A stretch of DNA of 36,003 nt, from positions 1 to 36,003 of the IMG/VR virus record IMGVR_UViG_3300037311_000466; one strand, 5' to 3'. The DNA comes from a virus (lineage: Duplodnaviria > Caudoviricetes). A program made the position numbers and the translations under genes. Positions within the stretch are counted from its first letter, which is position 1. Each line of letters opens with the position of its first letter. Under the pieces are notes generated by a model, which saw nothing but the letters and a program-made list of their open reading frames with translations, did not search any database and was not told the DNA's origin. Shown piece by piece: positions 1 to 32,161 of this stretch.

Positions 1-732
1 ATGCATAACGCTCCTAAATTTTTAAAAATAACCCCACCTAAAAATGGTCGAAGATGGGCAATCGGTGATATTCACGGTTGTTTTTATACACTTAAAGTAC
101 TTTTAGAGGATAGATTAAGCATTTGTCAGAATGATCATATTTATTTTTTGGGCGATTATATCGATAAAGGCCCACATAGCCATTTAGTATTGGATTATCT
201 GATGGATTTGCAAGTCAATGGTTATCAGTTATTTACCTTACGGGGCAATCACGAAGAAAATCTTTTATACGCCCAGCAAAATTATAATGATAGAATGTTA
301 AGGCTATTTGTAGCAAAAATGAATAAATCTCCTCAATTAATGGCTGACGATGGTCGTGTTAAGTCTGTTTATATTGATTTTTGTGAAAAAATGCCCTATT
401 ATATTGAATTGCAAGATTATTTTTTGGTTCACGCCGGATTCAGATTTCATTTAGCCGAGCCTTTTGCTGATTGGATAGGGATGTTAGAAGTAGGAAAAAC
501 TGATTCAGCGGCTATTTATTTAGAAAATAAAACTCTATTAGTCGGGCACCACCCCACAAATATCAGTGAAATTGAAAAAATGATTCTTCAAAAACAAAAA
601 ATAATTTGCTTAGACAATGGTTGTGTATATAACAAACCTCATAAACGCTTGGATTTCAATCAATTAGGTCATTTGTGTGCTTTTAATTTAGATACTTGGG
701 AGTTAATCAGACAAAAGAATCTGGATATATAA
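1..732 (+). CDS. Metallophosphoesterase (PPP/calcineurin-like Ser/Thr phosphatase family), probably a host gene flanking the prophage
   Basis: Motifs GDIHG, GDYIDKG, RGNHE, VHAG, GH and LDNGCV occur in canonical order. Confidence 0.9.
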   Translation: MHNAPKFLKITPPKNGRRWAIGDIHGCFYTLKVLLEDRLSICQNDHIYFLGDYIDKGPHSHLVLDYLMDLQVNGYQLFTLRGNHEENLLYAQQNYNDRMLRLFVAKMNKSPQLMADDGRVKSVYIDFCEKMPYYIELQDYFLVHAGFRFHLAEPFADWIGMLEVGKTDSAAIYLENKTLLVGHHPTNISEIEKMILQKQKIICLDNGCVYNKPHKRLDFNQLGHLCAFNLDTWELIRQKNLDI

Positions 733-803
733 ACTAAAAATCAAAAAATAAACTTTTTAAAACCGATTTAAAGAGTAATATCTCGAAATAATACAAGTAT
801 TTG

Positions 804-872
804 AGCGGGTGGATGGTTACAAACCTCGCCTCCGAAATGGAAATTCGGCACTCTATTTTAAGCTACACCCGC
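804..872 (-). tRNA. Non-canonical tRNA-Gly(UCC)-like gene
   Basis: Minus strand reads GCGGGTG TA GCTT AAAATA GAGT G CCGAA TTTCCAT TTCGG AGGC GAGG TTTGTAA CCATC CACCCGC T. It has a perfect 7-bp acceptor stem, a perfect 5-bp anticodon stem, anticodon TCC and discriminator U. The D-loop lacks GG, the T-loop lacks TTCG, the T-stem is bulged, and no CCA is encoded (CAA follows). Confidence 0.8.
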
Positions 873-878
873 GTATGA

Positions 879-1589
879 TTAATTCATTTTCTCGCCTTTA
901 TACATTTTTGCGCCCATTTCTTTTATTTTCTCAAAAGGCAAAACAGGCACACTTAATTCAGCTTTTTTATCTATAAGGTAGATATATCTAAGTTGATAAC
1001 CTTCCATCTTTTTAGCCCCAATTTCAAAATACTTCTTTAATGATGTGCTGCCATCCAAAGGTAAGCCATATTTTAAAGCTATTTCCCGGCACTTTTTCTG
1101 AGTTACATTAGCAGTCAGGCTTGTTTGCACAATTTTTTCTCCATCCGGCATCACCATTATACTTTTATTAGGGTTAATACCCGTTAAAACAAATCCTGAT
1201 GCTCTATAAATAGTGCCGTCTCCACATTGAGTCCCATCGGCAAAACTCAAAATCCAACGAATATGCGGGCAATGCTTTTTAATCAATCTAATGGCAATAG
1301 CTATACACCTACTTTCGGAGTTCTTGGGCAAAAAATCATCAAAAGCCATTCGGTTAAGCTCTATAAAGTCATACCATCGGGTATTTTTAACCAAACCTAT
1401 CACTTTCCGCTTATCTAAGGGGCTGCCGAAACTTAACACACCGTGCAGGTAATCTTCATAAAAACAGCCAAAATGCAAATTGCTGTTTTGGCAAACTTTG
1501 CCGGAATAATGATGCGCTTGCACAAATTCATTAGCCGTTTTTCGGTCAATGCGATATATTTTTATATCCTTTATGCTGATTCCGCCCAT
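879..1589 (-). CDS. Mom-like adenine modification enzyme (GNAT fold)
   Basis: Motifs ANEFVQAHHYSG, IELNRMAF, NSESRCI and ILSFADGTQCGDGTIYRASGF match phage Mom-family proteins. Its terminal position in a Mu-like genome matches Mu mom. Confidence 0.8.
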   Translation of the reverse strand: MGGISIKDIKIYRIDRKTANEFVQAHHYSGKVCQNSNLHFGCFYEDYLHGVLSFGSPLDKRKVIGLVKNTRWYDFIELNRMAFDDFLPKNSESRCIAIAIRLIKKHCPHIRWILSFADGTQCGDGTIYRASGFVLTGINPNKSIMVMPDGEKIVQTSLTANVTQKKCREIALKYGLPLDGSTSLKKYFEIGAKKMEGYQLRYIYLIDKKAELSVPVLPFEKIKEMGAKMYKGEKMN

Positions 1590-1804
1590 TCTTTTATAAT
1601 TTGATGTAAGGCGTTACCATTGCTGTTTTTATTGACTCCATCGCCCAAAACCCCTTTCTTCTTAACCTTCTTGATTGCCTCATCCACTTCTCTGGCTTGT
1701 TGAAATGAAAAGGTGAATGTTTTTTGGGTAATTACTGGGTCGTCTCCGGCGGGCAATCTAATCTCATCAACAATCTTCACTTCGTCAATATGTATTTTTC
1801 GCAT
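1571..1804 (-). CDS. Small protein coupled to the Mom-like gene; resembles the C-terminal segment of ParB-domain partners of Mom-like genes
   Basis: LPAGD...QKTFTF...Q...NKNSNGNALxxIIKEW pattern recalled from such partner proteins; overlaps the mom start by 19 bp. Confidence 0.55.
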   Translation of the reverse strand: MRKIHIDEVKIVDEIRLPAGDDPVITQKTFTFSFQQAREVDEAIKKVKKKGVLGDGVNKNSNGNALHQIIKEWAESA

Positions 1805-4458: not shown

Positions 4459-6615
4459 TTAATTTTTTGGTCTTATACCTATCAAGGAGACATTGATTGG
4501 GTTAATCCCCAAAGCTAAAGCTGGGCTTCCATTCGGAAAGGTATATATTTCATTATTGTAATCGGTAAATATGCTTGCCCCTGTTACAACACTATTCAAG
4601 TCTAATCCTAGAGTTTTGTCAGCGTTGTTTTGATTGCTTACCCAACTTGCATTAGGATAATAGAGGTTGTAGTCGGCTTGTAGTTCTAAGTACCAATTAG
4701 CGTAAGCATTATCTTCTTTCAAAAGTGCTGGTTGCTTCCCAGACTCAAGGTGATAAATAATGTTTCTATTGGCTTGGCTATAATAATAATTTTCCTGTGC
4801 CGGATTGAGATAACCGAAAACATCTAATATAGAAGCATCAGCTTTTTGAATACTTCTTAAATCAAGAATGAAGTTATTATTATATTTATTGTTATCATGC
4901 TTAATGGTGATTCCTACATAAGCGTGATTGCGGATAATGTTGTTTTCTATCGTAGCCAATCGCGTTTGGTCATCCGTGCGAATGCCGCCCCAAGTGCCGG
5001 GGCCTAGGCAATCTTTGATATAATTAAAAGTAATGCGGTTATAGTACCCGCAAGAGCTGATATATATGCCATTGGTATCATTGATGCGCCCGGAATAGGT
5101 AATGTTACTTAGCTTGTTATAGCTAATATCATTATAACTAGAGGATAAAAACCTAATAATAGGCTCCCAAGCATCTACAATCGGCACTTCTGGCCTTACA
5201 ATGGCTTTGCCGACCTCCCTTCTGGTTTGATAATTGGCATTGAAATGAAAGGATCTGCCGGAGCAAATGGAGATACCATTGGCTGGACAGTTTTTAAGCT
5301 CATTCCATTTTACTTGGTTGTAGCCTGATTGCCAAATGGCAATCCCACTACTGCCTTGATGTAGCCAGCCAATATTATCTACTGAGTTGTTGGTAATGAC
5401 ATTATTGCGACTTCTACGAGTTAATGAAATATCAATATCACTCACTACAATCCCATTACCGCCGAGATTTTTGAATTCACAGTAATTGACCGTTATATTT
5501 CTACAGTGTCCATCCAGCCTAAGTCCACTCGCCCCTGAATCTATGAAAACGCAATCTTGAATTCTGCAAGATTCGGCATTTTTGAGTTTCATTATGGCGT
5601 CATTAGCATCCACGAGGTGGAAATCGTGTAGCCCTCCTTTGTCGGCATCTACCCAATAGTAGGCATTTGCCCATCTAAATTTAAGATTAGTGAAACTTAA
5701 ATTCTTAACAGGGTTGGAGGGGCTACTGCCTTCTACTCGTATGAACTCGACTAGCTTGGGGATTTTGTAGGCTTTGGCATTGGGGCTTATGTCGCCACTT
5801 GGCCAAAGGTATATTCGATTGGTGGTACTATTAAAAACAAAGGTGTTTTGGGTAATATTGCCAATCCAATTATGTAAATAGGCTGTTTTTGTTTTGTCAG
5901 TGCGGTAATAAGAGTAAATCTGCGTCATAAAGGCACTGGCCGGAACCGAGGTGACGGCTGTATTAGTGCCGGTATTGACCGAAGAAAAGCCCTTGAGCAC
6001 ATTAAACATATAAGCCACCCGGGGCGTGATGCTAACGTAGATGTCGCTCAGATTAGCATTCGGAATTTTCCCCGATGGGAAATGCAAAGTATTGAGGTTA
6101 GCTGGATTGGTATTATCGTCATAAGCAGGAGTCCATCCGGCATCGATTGAATGATATAGGAGAGAATTAGTCGGACTGATTAGAAACCCGGAAAAAGGCT
6201 GACCGGTAGTATTATATTCATATAGCTTGCCTGCACTCCCACCGGGCTGATTGCTTACAACTCCGCTCAATACCCAACTGGTGGCATCTGCATAAGAGGT
6301 GATATATACATTCTCTTTGGATGCTCCTTTCCACTCTATCTGTACCCCTGACCCAACATCTTGATTATTGAAAATCAGGGTATTACTCAAATTGTAAGTA
6401 CCCGCCCGCAGGATTACTTCAATCTTCCCCTTATAACCTTGCGCTATTAGCTCCCTTACTCTGGCTTGAGCTTTATTCAAAGTTAAATACGGTTGTCTAT
6501 ATGCGCCAGTATTATTGTCATTGCCATTGGGGCTTACTACTACTTGCCTTGTTTGGGCAAATGCAGCTACTATCCAAAAGGAAAATAAAAGACTTAAAAT
6601 TATTTTTTTCATCAT
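4459..6615 (-). CDS. Right-handed parallel beta-helix protein (GH141/pectin-lyase-like, candidate depolymerase) with N-terminal signal peptide
   Basis: VSPNGNDNNTG...PYLTLNKAQ...VILRAGTY, Asn-rich beta-helix repeats, DTNGIY and IRTDD motifs; starts with the Sec-type signal MKKIILSLLFSFWIVAAFA-Q. Confidence 0.75.
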   Translation of the reverse strand: MMKKIILSLLFSFWIVAAFAQTRQVVVSPNGNDNNTGAYRQPYLTLNKAQARVRELIAQGYKGKIEVILRAGTYNLSNTLIFNNQDVGSGVQIEWKGASKENVYITSYADATSWVLSGVVSNQPGGSAGKLYEYNTTGQPFSGFLISPTNSLLYHSIDAGWTPAYDDNTNPANLNTLHFPSGKIPNANLSDIYVSITPRVAYMFNVLKGFSSVNTGTNTAVTSVPASAFMTQIYSYYRTDKTKTAYLHNWIGNITQNTFVFNSTTNRIYLWPSGDISPNAKAYKIPKLVEFIRVEGSSPSNPVKNLSFTNLKFRWANAYYWVDADKGGLHDFHLVDANDAIMKLKNAESCRIQDCVFIDSGASGLRLDGHCRNITVNYCEFKNLGGNGIVVSDIDISLTRRSRNNVITNNSVDNIGWLHQGSSGIAIWQSGYNQVKWNELKNCPANGISICSGRSFHFNANYQTRREVGKAIVRPEVPIVDAWEPIIRFLSSSYNDISYNKLSNITYSGRINDTNGIYISSCGYYNRITFNYIKDCLGPGTWGGIRTDDQTRLATIENNIIRNHAYVGITIKHDNNKYNNNFILDLRSIQKADASILDVFGYLNPAQENYYYSQANRNIIYHLESGKQPALLKEDNAYANWYLELQADYNLYYPNASWVSNQNNADKTLGLDLNSVVTGASIFTDYNNEIYTFPNGSPALALGINPINVSLIGIRPKN

Positions 6616-6626
6616 TATAATTAGGT

Positions 6627-6651
6627 TAAACAGTTGATTATCAGTATATTA
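6627..6651. promoter_or_regulatory. 25-bp palindrome TAA-N5-TGATTATCA-N5-TTA, copy 1
   Basis: TAA ACAGT TGATTATCA GTATA TTA; intergenic, 11 nt upstream of the 6615 start. Confidence 0.7.
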
Positions 6652-6652
6652 A

Positions 6653-16349: not shown

Positions 16350-16372
16350 TTTTAAGAATATTTCTTTTTAAT

Positions 16373-16397
16373 TAAACAATTGATTATCAGTACTTTA
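16373..16397. promoter_or_regulatory. 25-bp palindrome, copy 2
   Basis: TAA ACAAT TGATTATCA GTACT TTA; 23 nt upstream of the capsid start. Confidence 0.7.
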
Positions 16398-16415
16398 AGT
16401 CAAAATAAAGTAAAA

Positions 16416-18856: not shown

Positions 18857-20418
18857 ACCTGCAAGAATTAGACTTACTAAGCAATAAAATCAAAAAATTC
18901 TCCCAAAAAGATTACGAGGAGTGGCTAGCTTTCTGCGAGCATATCCAAGAAATGACCCAAGTAATCCCGGATGAAACCAAGCCCGAAAAGGAAAAAAGAA
19001 TTGCCCGCCTTTTGAAGCCCGAAAATTACGGGGAATTTTTTGAGTATTATTTTCCGCATTACACCCTCAAAGCTGACGGCTCTAAAATCGCCTGCGCCCC
19101 TTATCATACGAAAATTGCCAACACCTTAATTAGTGAAAGCTTTGTAGATGTTGTTTTTGAAGGGCATCGGGGCTGCGCCAAATCCACGCACGGCAATATA
19201 GGTTTTCCTATGCGTAATATGCTGATTGGCGAAATGAATTTTATGTTGTTAATCGGTGAAACCGAGCCCAAAGCCTGCCGTTTGCTGGGTGATATTCAGG
19301 CTGAGTTTGAGTTTAATCAACTAATTATCAATGACTTTGGCAAACAGGTCGTTTCTGGCTCTTGGGCAGATGGCGAGTTTCAAACCAAAGGCGGGGTCTA
19401 TTTCTCCTCTTTAAGTTTAGGCCAAAACCCGCGCGGTATTCGCAAACGACAGCACCGACCCGATTATATTGTCGTAGATGATGTGGACAATAAAAGAAGG
19501 TGCAATAATCCACGCCTAATCCAAGAGTCCGTTGAATGGATTACTGATGATTTAATGCAGTGCTTTGGCTCCGAAAGAGGCCGTTTTTTATTAGTTAATA
19601 ACCGCATTCATAAGAATAGTATTCTAGTCAATATACTAAAATCCTTACCTTCCGTTCGTCATTTTCAAATCAATGCCTTAGACAAAAACGGTGAGCCCAC
19701 TTGGAAGGCTAAATACACTAAGGAGTACTGGGACAAAAAACAAGCCGATACTACTTTCCGCTCCTTCCAACGTGAGTATATGAATAATCCCATTGAAGAC
19801 GGAAAAATATTTAAAGCCGAGTGGATTCAATATAAAAAAATGCTCCGCTTAGATAAATATGATGCACTCGTATTGTATGGCGATTTGTCTTACAAAGAAA
19901 CCGGCGATTTCAAAGCAATGAAGCTTTGGGGCAAAATCGGGCGCGAATTTCATCGCATTGCCGTTTTTTGCCGCCAAACCTCCCGCGCCCAGTGCGCCAT
20001 TTGGCTCTATGATTTATACGAAGATTTAAAGCTGGAAAAATACGCTGTCAGCTATTTTATCGAAGGCTTATTTGCAATGGATGAATTTGTTAATGATTTT
20101 GACTTAGAAGGCGATAAACGAAAATATTATATTCCGGTGCAAGCCGACACCCGCCCCAAAGCCGCTAAATTTGACCGAATAGAGCAAATATCCGGGTTTT
20201 GGGAGCGTAGAAATGTATTTTATAACGAAGCCTACAAAGATTGTTCCGACGAACAAGCCGAATTAGACCAACTCCTAGCCTTCGAGAAAGGCTCCGGCGC
20301 GCCCGATGATGCCCCGGATGCTGATGCCGGGGCAATCGGCAAACTTAATGGGGTAACATATATCAACGAGGGCGAAACTCGCACTGGCAAACGCCCCAAA
20401 CCAAATTCTAACTACTAA
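18853..20418 (+). CDS. terL: Terminase large subunit
   Basis: HRGCAKST Walker A variant, RGIR...RPDYIVVDDVD Walker B, FQREYMNNP, nuclease YGDLSY and DDAPDA. Confidence 0.9.
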   Translation: MNLQELDLLSNKIKKFSQKDYEEWLAFCEHIQEMTQVIPDETKPEKEKRIARLLKPENYGEFFEYYFPHYTLKADGSKIACAPYHTKIANTLISESFVDVVFEGHRGCAKSTHGNIGFPMRNMLIGEMNFMLLIGETEPKACRLLGDIQAEFEFNQLIINDFGKQVVSGSWADGEFQTKGGVYFSSLSLGQNPRGIRKRQHRPDYIVVDDVDNKRRCNNPRLIQESVEWITDDLMQCFGSERGRFLLVNNRIHKNSILVNILKSLPSVRHFQINALDKNGEPTWKAKYTKEYWDKKQADTTFRSFQREYMNNPIEDGKIFKAEWIQYKKMLRLDKYDALVLYGDLSYKETGDFKAMKLWGKIGREFHRIAVFCRQTSRAQCAIWLYDLYEDLKLEKYAVSYFIEGLFAMDEFVNDFDLEGDKRKYYIPVQADTRPKAAKFDRIEQISGFWERRNVFYNEAYKDCSDEQAELDQLLAFEKGSGAPDDAPDADAGAIGKLNGVTYINEGETRTGKRPKPNSNY

Positions 20419-27998: not shown

Positions 27999-28004
27999 TT
28001 TATT

Positions 28005-28029
28005 TAATCATTTGATTATCAATTACTTA
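28005..28029. promoter_or_regulatory. 25-bp palindrome, copy 3
   Basis: TAA TCATT TGATTATCA ATTAC TTA; 6 nt upstream of the 27998 start. Confidence 0.7.
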
Positions 28030-28045
28030 CTATTTTTCTATATTT

Positions 28046-31466: not shown

Positions 31467-31473
31467 AATTTTA

Positions 31474-31498
31474 TAATTTATTGATTATCAATGATTTA
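31474..31498. promoter_or_regulatory. 25-bp palindrome, copy 4
   Basis: TAA TTTAT TGATTATCA ATGAT TTA; fills the 33-bp gap, 7 nt upstream of the 31466 start. Confidence 0.7.
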
Positions 31499-32130: not shown

Positions 32131-32136
32131 ATTTTT

Positions 32137-32161
32137 TAATTTACTGATTATCAACCACTTA
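32137..32161. promoter_or_regulatory. 25-bp palindrome, copy 5
   Basis: TAA TTTAC TGATTATCA ACCAC TTA; 6 nt upstream of ATG 32130. Confidence 0.7.

What the first reader, a model, noticed from the sequence alone, without database searches (positions are those of the whole stretch)
804..1589. Mom-like DNA hypermodification enzyme with its own non-canonical tRNA-Gly: candidate dedicated glycyl-donor system
Seen: a 69-nt cloverleaf starts 6 nt after the Mom-like stop codon on the same strand. It keeps the bacterial GlyRS identity set (G1-C72, C2-G71, G3-C70, U73, anticodon C35/C36) with perfect acceptor and anticodon stems. It has lost D-loop G18G19 and T-loop TTCG and has a bulged T-stem, the region EF-Tu reads. 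Established: Mu Mom makes N6-carbamoylmethyl-adenine and has a GNAT fold, and staphylococcal non-proteinogenic tRNA-Gly species that feed Fem ligases show similar D/T-loop losses. I recall recent work reporting Gly-tRNA-Gly as the Mom donor; this should be verified. Inference: the phage co-expresses a tRNA that is charged by host GlyRS but escapes translation, supplying glycine for anti-restriction DNA modification. Damage confined to the elbow and T-arm argues against random decay. Standard tRNA scanners may miss it or call it a pseudogene.
Basis: partly seen in the sequence, partly recalled or inferred. Interest (0 to 1): 0.92.

Follow-up and report, generated by a model that had tools for sequence, protein, structure and literature searches.

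The report
Phage DNA-modifier's private glycine tRNA
Right behind its gene for Mom, an enzyme family that disguises phage DNA with glycine taken from charged glycine tRNA, this prophage carries a rebuilt glycine tRNA of a kind found almost only beside mom genes, and it is likely the enzyme's own glycine carrier, kept out of protein synthesis (not yet tested at the bench).

Summary
Confirmed. A Mu-like prophage ends with a Mom-family gene (879-1589, minus) followed 6 nt later by a tRNA-Gly(UCC)-like gene (804-872) that lies inside the phage end. It belongs to a widespread family. A covariance model finds it at 89 of 94 viral and 60 of 80 cellular loci of related mom genes. Searching by RNA pattern alone, 149 of 160 loci with the bulged T-arm have a mom gene within 1.5 kb, against 0 of 80 for ordinary tRNA-Gly. 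The family keeps the GlyRS identity bases almost invariant, but not the decoding loop, and nearly always has a one-base bulge in the EF-Tu-read T-stem. Best reading (0.75): a host-charged, translation-avoiding glycine donor for DNA modification. Expression, charging, EF-Tu escape and donor use are inferred, not shown. In print: Mom uses host Gly-tRNA (PMC13219725), and a tRNA-Gly-like locus inside Dehalococcoides island mom genes was noted without a function (PMC3146451). My searches found no paper linking the two. This scan reported the same pairing before on other DNA.

The parts
879..1589 (-). Mom-family GNAT gene (236 aa), predicted DNA adenine glycyl-transferase; last protein gene of the Mu-like prophage
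   Evidence: PF25680 E 1e-49; phrog_1384; 8bv8 by sequence and by fold. Aligns to Mu H58, Y59, R111, S124, D149, Y159 as H27, Y28, R80, S93, D118, Y128; Mu R151, W48, W181 align to Q121, K17, K152 (read by hand from the alignment; residue roles from PMC13219725).
804..872 (-). tRNA-Gly(UCC)-like gene, 69 nt to U73: GlyRS identity bases, anticodon at 841-839, 4-bp T-stem with unpaired A at 814 (partner base 51 missing in the Rfam alignment)
   Evidence: Sequence; RF00005 41.9 bits; family model R1 67 bits, but it is a seed of that model; family covariation.
801..803 (-). 3' trailer CAA; CCA is not encoded and would have to be added by the host
   Evidence: Sequence. In a named relative host (Larkinella knui) only 4 of 30 canonical tRNA genes examined encode CCA and 30 of 30 have C74, so this is ordinary for such hosts.
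1571..1804 (-). 77-aa ORF overlapping the mom start; matches the C-terminal part of the roughly 200-aa partner gene that precedes mom in relatives
   Evidence: phmmer hits 151 of 162 upstream ORFs, the window's own included; no Pfam or PHROG hit.
729..758 (.). Prophage end: junction with host DNA at 728/729 and a short end repeat
   Evidence: Contigs of three other runs (X2, X4, X5) match the host gene up to 728 and then go on with other sequence. The 69.5-kb contig of run X1 (possibly this DNA's source) holds 731-758 again, direct and inverted, about 37 kb away.
1..732 (+). Host metallophosphoesterase gene, outside the prophage; its last codons are the insertion site
   Evidence: PF00149 E 1e-16; junction.

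Best explanation
Shown here: the gene pair, its place inside the phage end, the family-wide two-way association, the covarying cloverleaf, the invariant GlyRS identity bases, the T-stem bulge and the drifting decoding loop. From print, for Mu Mom only: glycine is transferred from Gly-tRNA(Gly) to N6 of adenine in dsDNA and rearranges to 6-NcmdA. Inferred steps: (1) late transcription with mom, 5' and 3' processing and CCA addition by host enzymes; (2) glycylation through G1-C72, C2-G71, G3-C70, U73, C35, C36; (3) loss of EF-Tu binding, because the bulge sits among pairs 49-65, 50-64, 51-63 and in this copy base 51 is missing and A63 is unpaired; (4) U73 also limits removal of the glycine by DTD; (5) the enzyme thus draws on a pool that translation does not sequester, which spares host Gly-tRNA needed for virion protein synthesis.
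For: Mom to RNA: model R1 hits 89 of 94 viral and 60 of 80 cellular loci of related mom genes. Leaving out the seed loci, 43 of 48 and 42 of 62 (counted by hand). RNA to Mom: patterns holding only the bulged T-arm and 3' acceptor strand, no anticodon, gave 74 of 80 and 75 of 80 loci with a Mom-family hit within 1.5 kb; the matched unbulged tRNA-Gly pattern gave 0 of 80. Six of the 11 misses are cut short on one side. Structure: 98.5% of 1295 cells paired, 17 of 20 pairs with two-sided changes; T-stem 100% paired in the bulged register, 60.8% unbulged (the seeds were chosen for the bulge, so that contrast is biased). Among 134 distinct hits: G1-C72 and C2-G71 133 of 133 complete, U73 133 of 134, C35-C36 132 of 134, bulge 129 of 134; base 34 is T 90, A 34, G 6, C 2; U33 69 of 132; 7-nt loop 63 of 134. 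Canonical decoding loop in 13 of 71 and 10 of 55 parsed bulged RNAs against 63 of 66 parsed ordinary viral tRNA-Gly. In 100 further genomes of the Larkinella family with no PF25680 match, the six R1 hits at E <= 1e-10 were all ordinary unbulged tRNA-Gly (only 48 candidates scored per genome). Identity bases and the EF-Tu role of the first three T-stem pairs: PMC7826273 passages, PMC3239215 abstract and section 12. U73 as DTD antideterminant: PMC6097841 abstract. Mom chemistry: PMC13219725.
Against: No expression, charging, EF-Tu or modification data. Mu Mom works with all three host tRNA-Gly isoacceptors, so a private RNA is not chemically required. Of 12 annotated phage mom loci only Psychrobacter phage Y8A, the closest relative, has clear copies; Mu and nine others have no R1 hit and Melnitz-2 only a weak distant one. 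20 of 80 cellular and 5 of 94 viral close loci lack a hit within the 1.2-1.5 kb held (4 of these 25 are cut short); 15 of 22 further PF25680 loci from two phyla lack one. The window enzyme lacks Mu R151, which is essential in Mu Mom, and W48 and W181, so its activity is unproven. The window RNA has a canonical anticodon loop. I found no paper that measures EF-Tu binding to a T-stem with this bulge.
Confidence: 0.75

Rival explanations
1. The RNA is a brake, not a donor: a tRNA mimic that binds Mom and holds it back so that host DNA is not modified at the wrong time (an RNA antitoxin or decoy).
For: It explains the tight two-way linkage and the antisense, separately expressed copies just as well. 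Mom is thought to read mainly the acceptor end (PMC13219725 discussion), which is the invariant part.
Against: C35-C36 is kept in 132 of 134. These bases are GlyRS determinants, far from the acceptor end. A charged tRNA-Gly with a normal acceptor end should be a substrate, since every host isoacceptor is.
Confidence: 0.08
2. It is a working translational tRNA-Gly that tops up the pool drained by Mom or cut by host anticodon nucleases.
For: The window copy has a canonical UCC loop. 25 of 134 relatives have a canonical loop, and many keep D-loop GG and T-loop TTC. Linkage to mom would follow from the drain.
Against: Most relatives have 6- or 8-nt loops, no U33 or an ACC anticodon, and several have lost the D-arm. 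The bulge sits in the EF-Tu contact pairs. Ordinary phage-contig tRNA-Gly genes are never near mom (0 of 80).
Confidence: 0.07
3. It acts in cis on the mom message: processing of the tRNA-like fold cuts or stabilises the transcript and times Mom expression.
For: It hugs the gene. It overlaps the mom reading frame in 48 viral and 19 cellular loci and lies in the first codons in others, so its excision would cut the message.
Against: It occurs at the 5' end, at the 3' end, 350 nt downstream behind another gene (L095), and antisense in 55 of 75 copies of the window's subclass; strand changes at least 16 times on a fast tree of 158 proteins. Glycine identity would not be needed.
Confidence: 0.06
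4. It is a host tRNA remnant, an attachment-site scar or a decayed pseudogene.
For: ARAGORN misses it. Elbow bases are lost and CCA is not encoded.
Against: It lies about 75 nt inside the phage end, the insertion is in a protein gene, and no second piece of it is listed on the 69.5-kb contig. Stems covary across the family. L037 and L088 share the same odd D-loop and near-identical T-loop on different stems.
Confidence: 0.04

Closest known systems
Phage Mu Mom with host Gly-tRNA(Gly) (PF25680, PDB 8bv8; PMC13219725, bioRxiv 10.1101/2023.03.24.534169)
   Same: Same enzyme family and fold; six of nine residues named as important are kept; the donor amino acid matches the RNA's identity.
   Different: Mu uses host tRNAs and has no such RNA beside mom (L295). 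The paper's main text and two searchable supplements show no mention of a phage-encoded tRNA for the terms tried. The window clade has Q at R151.
76-bp tRNA-Gly-like 'pseudo-tRNA' (anticodon DCC) inside the mom homologue of Dehalococcoides ssrA genomic islands (PMC3146451)
   Same: Same pairing with mom and the same free wobble base. Six loci in five small unnamed Chloroflexota genomes carry a 76-nt bulged R1 hit starting 4-142 nt after the first start codon of mom, which fits that description, so it is probably the same family.
   Different: Reported for one lineage plus one fosmid, with no donor role proposed and, in the passages seen, no mention of a bulge. The paper's alignment is a picture, so identity with this family was not tested on its own sequences.
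Non-proteogenic tRNA-Gly NP1-NP3 of Staphylococcus, donors for FmhB/FemA/FemB (PMC7826273, PMC3239215)
   Same: GlyRS-charged tRNA-Gly reserved for a GNAT-fold aminoacyl transferase by weak EF-Tu binding: the model for how this works.
   Different: Those are chromosomal, staphylococcal only, serve cell-wall synthesis and weaken EF-Tu binding with A-U pairs (49-65, 50-64, 51-63). This family travels with mobile mom genes, has G-C-rich pairs broken by a bulge, and has a drifting anticodon loop.
Ordinary phage-borne tRNA-Gly genes
   Same: Same acceptor identity and cloverleaf.
   Different: Unbulged T-stem, canonical loop in 63 of 66 parsed, and 0 of 80 near mom.

Membership tests
Mom family (PF25680) | Sequence match over the curated cut-off | tested here: met
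   169 bits against a cut-off of 27.1
Mom family (PF25680) | GNAT fold like Mu Mom | tested here: met
   Model pLDDT 86; top Foldseek hit 8bv8, E 8e-18, next hit 5e-6
Mom family (PF25680) | Catalytic residues R111 and S124 | tested here: met
   R80 and S93; S93 invariant and R80 at least 90% conserved in 43 relatives
Mom family (PF25680) | Third essential residue R151 of Mu Mom | tested here: not met
   Aligns to Q121 across a one-residue gap. An invariant R129 nearby could stand in; that is inference.
Mom family (PF25680) | Forms 6-NcmdA on dsDNA | not testable with these tools
   Needs LC-MS of modified DNA
Canonical elongator tRNA-Gly | Cloverleaf with GlyRS identity bases G1-C72, C2-G71, G3-C70, U73, C35, C36 | tested here: met
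Canonical elongator tRNA-Gly | Continuous 5-bp T-stem with a 51-63 pair | tested here: not met
   Four pairs plus an unpaired A; base 51 gapped in the Rfam alignment; pair formed in 1 of 65 seeds in the unbulged register
Canonical elongator tRNA-Gly | Elbow bases G18, G19, C56, A58 | tested here: not met
   D-loop AAAAUA, T-loop UUUGUAA
Canonical elongator tRNA-Gly | 7-nt anticodon loop with U33 and purine 37 | tested here: met
   Met in the window copy; in only 25 of 134 relatives
Staphylococcal non-proteogenic tRNA-Gly (NP1-3) | Weak A49-U65, U50-A64, A51-U63 T-stem pairs | tested here: not met
   Window has G-C, A-U, bulge (definition)
Staphylococcal non-proteogenic tRNA-Gly (NP1-3) | Lineage confined to staphylococci, serving Fem ligases | tested here: not met
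   Found beside mom in phage contigs and in Bacteroidota, Bacillota, Pseudomonadota and Chloroflexota records
Staphylococcal non-proteogenic tRNA-Gly (NP1-3) | Charged by GlyRS and bound poorly by EF-Tu | not testable with these tools
   Bench assay needed
mom-embedded tRNA-Gly-like locus of Dehalococcoides islands | 76-nt tRNA-Gly-like fold with DCC anticodon at the start of a mom homologue | tested here: inconclusive
The window copy is 3' of mom and of the shorter 4-bp subclass.

The most novel reading that the evidence does not exclude
Mobile elements across bacteria carry an orthogonal enzyme-RNA pair: a Mom clade that prefers, or needs, its own bulged tRNA-Gly, an RNA that is charged by the host but invisible to EF-Tu and the ribosome. 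It would be a dedicated aminoacyl-carrier RNA class for DNA modification, shrinking in some lineages to a D-armless minimal carrier, with the bulge at pairs 50-64/51-63 acting as a natural single-base switch out of translation.
Probability: 0.35. Interest if true: 0.9.

Novelty: new variant of a known kind. Interest (0 to 1): 0.76.

Why it matters
It would extend non-ribosomal tRNAs from the staphylococcal cell wall to DNA chemistry and to phages and islands, and answer how an enzyme that needs Gly-tRNA competes with EF-Tu late in infection. It gives a function to a large class of annotated 'pseudo-tRNAs' (the two narrow patterns alone match about 950 and about 220 stored viral stretches). The bulge is a marker for finding remote Mom-like enzymes: 77 of the 149 partners scored weaker than E 1e-50 against the close-relative profile. 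It is directly testable, because a coupled GlyRS-Mom assay exists and a cultured phage (Psychrobacter Y8A, OQ059336) carries two copies. It also offers a natural design for chargeable tRNAs that avoid translation.

Tried and rejected
ARAGORN at default settings misses the window RNA; at a lowered threshold it is too noisy to use. Expression: no RNA holder listed, which is no evidence either way; the runs laid were contigs of DNA-type runs. The promoter scan found no site on the minus strand in 600-2000 (sigma-70 consensus only). Link between T-stem length and encoded CCA: 0 of 57 in the 4-bp class against 52 of 66 in the 5-bp class, repeated in the pattern sets (4 of 80 against 71 of 80). It did not survive a test for kinship: 7 independent pairs on starred branches, same direction 2.3, opposite 0, no difference 4.7, p 0.5, and Bacteroidota-type hosts rarely encode CCA. 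I therefore do not claim that the C-A/U-A end is a ribosome-avoiding end. 'D-loop and T-loop loss is the signature' was rejected. 'Host remnant outside the phage' was rejected. The first control pattern was one base too long and was replaced. The tree is FastTree with 43 of 155 inner branches starred, so it shows mixing of states, not direction. The supplement figure of PMC3146451 holds no readable sequence, and one of three supplement files of PMC13219725 is a scan that was not searched. No complex prediction was run, since the tool does not score RNA partners. The metagenome scan was not used.

Full report
Observation. The window is one record of 36,003 bases holding most of a Mu-like prophage: transposase and transposition ATPase, Mu-type portal and head genes, contractile tail genes. 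The last protein gene, 879-1589 on the minus strand, is a Mom-family GNAT: PF25680 E 1e-49, phrog_1384 E 1e-50, Mu Mom 8bv8 E 7e-21 by sequence and top hit by fold. Six bases after its stop codon a 69-nt cloverleaf runs from 872 to 804. ARAGORN misses it; Rfam's tRNA model finds it at 41.9 bits and nothing else in the window. In the Rfam alignment base 51 is missing and A63 (window 814) has no partner.

It lies inside the phage. Contigs from three other runs match the neighbouring host phosphoesterase gene up to 728 and then continue with other sequence, as an empty site would. The 69.5-kb contig that spans the stretch (run X1, possibly this DNA's source) holds 731-758 again, direct and inverted, about 37 kb away, as the other end of a transposable phage would, and lists no second piece of the RNA. 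The RNA is thus about 75 nt inside the end and is not an attachment-site scar.

It is a family tied to mom, seen from the protein side. I fetched 14 plus 80 viral and 80 cellular loci of relatives 48-62% identical (the last two are the best 80 of 591 and of 158 confirmed). A descriptor scan gave 64 non-redundant seeds, which with the window made alignment A2 and model R1 (one D-armless candidate, L038, was left out). R1 hits 89 of 94 viral and 60 of 80 cellular loci, 86 and 51 of them within -60 to +150 nt of the end of the protein match. Without seed loci the counts are 43 of 48 and 42 of 62 (counted by hand). Some loci are near duplicates; 134 of 155 hits are distinct. The four stems covary: 98.5% of cells paired, 17 of 20 pairs with two-sided changes, against 39-51% paired when partners are slid. 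The seeds were selected for stems and bulge, so these figures lean that way.

Seen from the RNA side. Two DNA patterns with only the bulged T-arm and the 3' acceptor strand were scanned against viral contigs. Of the 80 loci with full flanks from each, 74 and 75 have a Mom-family hit within 1.5 kb; a matched pattern for the ordinary T-arm gave 0 of 80 (40 further short loci per scan were not counted). Although the patterns do not specify it, nearly all carry NCC at the anticodon. Only 23 and 49 partners are close relatives (E < 1e-50), so the pairing spans distant Mom groups. In 100 further genomes of the Larkinella family none had a PF25680 match and the six strong R1 hits were ordinary tRNA-Gly.

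What is kept and what drifts. Among 134 distinct RNAs: G1-C72 and C2-G71 133 of 133, G3-C70 121 (plus 7 G-U), U73 133, C35-C36 132, a T-stem bulge two pairs from the acceptor junction 129 (A in 105). Base 34 is T 90, A 34, G 6, C 2; U33 69 of 132; loops of 6, 7 and 8 nt number 29, 63 and 42; D-loop GG 66; T-loop TTC 58. A canonical decoding loop is found in 13 of 71 and 10 of 55 parsed bulged RNAs against 63 of 66 parsed ordinary ones. Some copies have lost the D-arm. The kept bases are the GlyRS identity set (PMC7826273 passage). The bulge falls among the three T-stem pairs that set EF-Tu affinity (PMC3239215 abstract). This pattern is what selection for charging without decoding would leave. 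The window copy is of the 4-bp subclass (57 of 134) and its own anticodon loop is canonical. Position and strand vary: in that subclass 55 of 75 are antisense to mom, in the 5-bp pattern set 74 of 74 are on the same strand, which favours action in trans.

Mechanism. Mu Mom transfers glycine from Gly-tRNA(Gly) to N6 of adenine in dsDNA; all three E. coli isoacceptors work and Gly-tRNA(Ala) does not (PMC13219725; I read the abstract, introduction, sections 6, 7, 9, 10, 13, 14, 38 and term searches). In Staphylococcus EF-Tu sequesters proteogenic Gly-tRNA from FmhB, and reserved tRNAs evade it. Every step for this RNA is inferred. Against it: Mu needs no such RNA; of 12 annotated phage mom loci only Y8A has clear copies; a quarter of close cellular loci and 15 of 22 further PF25680 loci have none nearby; the window enzyme has Q at Mu's essential R151. 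Rivals are a decoy (0.08), a translational top-up (0.07), a cis element (0.06) and a relic (0.04).

What is in print. PMC3146451 (passages) describes a conserved 76-bp tRNA-Gly-like locus, anticodon DCC, within the first 150 bp of the mom homologue in 16 Dehalococcoides islands and a marine fosmid, and assigns it no donor role. Six loci in five small unnamed Chloroflexota genomes have a bulged 76-nt R1 hit at the start of mom, so it is probably the same family. The Mom papers do not mention a phage-encoded tRNA for the terms searched (one scanned supplement file not searchable, bioRxiv supplements closed). Literature searches that found no paper linking the RNA to the donor role: (seen as listings); the library lacks most subscription papers. 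PMC7824862 (passages) treats Mom as using an acyl-CoA. This scan has reported the same pairing on other DNA at least five times; those notes are not independent evidence, but two of them led me to PMC3146451.

Verdict. A real, widespread, mom-linked tRNA-Gly variant; it works like the staphylococcal reserved tRNAs but is not one of them. New variant of a known kind, interest 0.76.

Noticed in passing
L095:1949-2245 (Larkinella knui prophage, closest named relative): A Tad2-like anti-Thoeris gene (PF11195, E 2e-23) sits between mom and the bulged tRNA (2255-2327), so this spot may be an anti-defence cluster.
   Followed up: no
L296:2117-2184 and 2189-2257 (Psychrobacter phage Y8A, OQ059336); also L038, L049, L054, L082, L090, L098: Shortened copies without a proper D-arm; two in tandem and unannotated in the cultured phage Y8A. 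A ready test system.
   Followed up: partly
window 1571-1804 minus: 77-aa ORF equal to the conserved C-terminal part of the roughly 200-aa partner that precedes mom in most relatives. In Y8A the gene at that place is annotated as a ParB/sulfiredoxin-domain protein (homology to it not tested). The window version lacks the N-terminal part.
   Followed up: partly
family-wide (A3, A4): Two subclasses: 4-bp T-stem plus bulge, almost never encoding CCA (trailer C-A/T-A) and often antisense; 5-bp T-stem plus bulge, mostly encoding CCA and nearly always sense. Not separable from kinship.
   Followed up: yes
L115, L117, L171 (about 1948-2191): Tandem pairs of copies, most of them without the bulge and all with poor 3' ends; possibly decaying or repurposed.
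   Followed up: no
L009, L158, L162 and probably L112, L118, L124, L130, L137, L138: The RNA lies 650-950 nt downstream; in the first three a second mom-like gene begins right after the first, and the RNA follows that second gene.
   Followed up: no
window 6626-6652, 16372-16398, 19312-19337, 28003-28030, 31472-31497, 32135-32160: A repeated near-palindromic motif centred on TGATTATCA, mostly between genes (families D1-D3, D7); possibly a regulator site.
   Followed up: no
window 4459-6615 minus: 718-aa right-handed beta-helix protein (PF13229) among the tail genes, with no PHROG hit; possibly a depolymerase or cargo gene.
   Followed up: no
window 882-1589, residues Q121 and R129: This Mom clade lacks Mu's essential R151 but has an invariant Arg right after the Y159 equivalent; a candidate site of changed tRNA recognition.
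   Followed up: no
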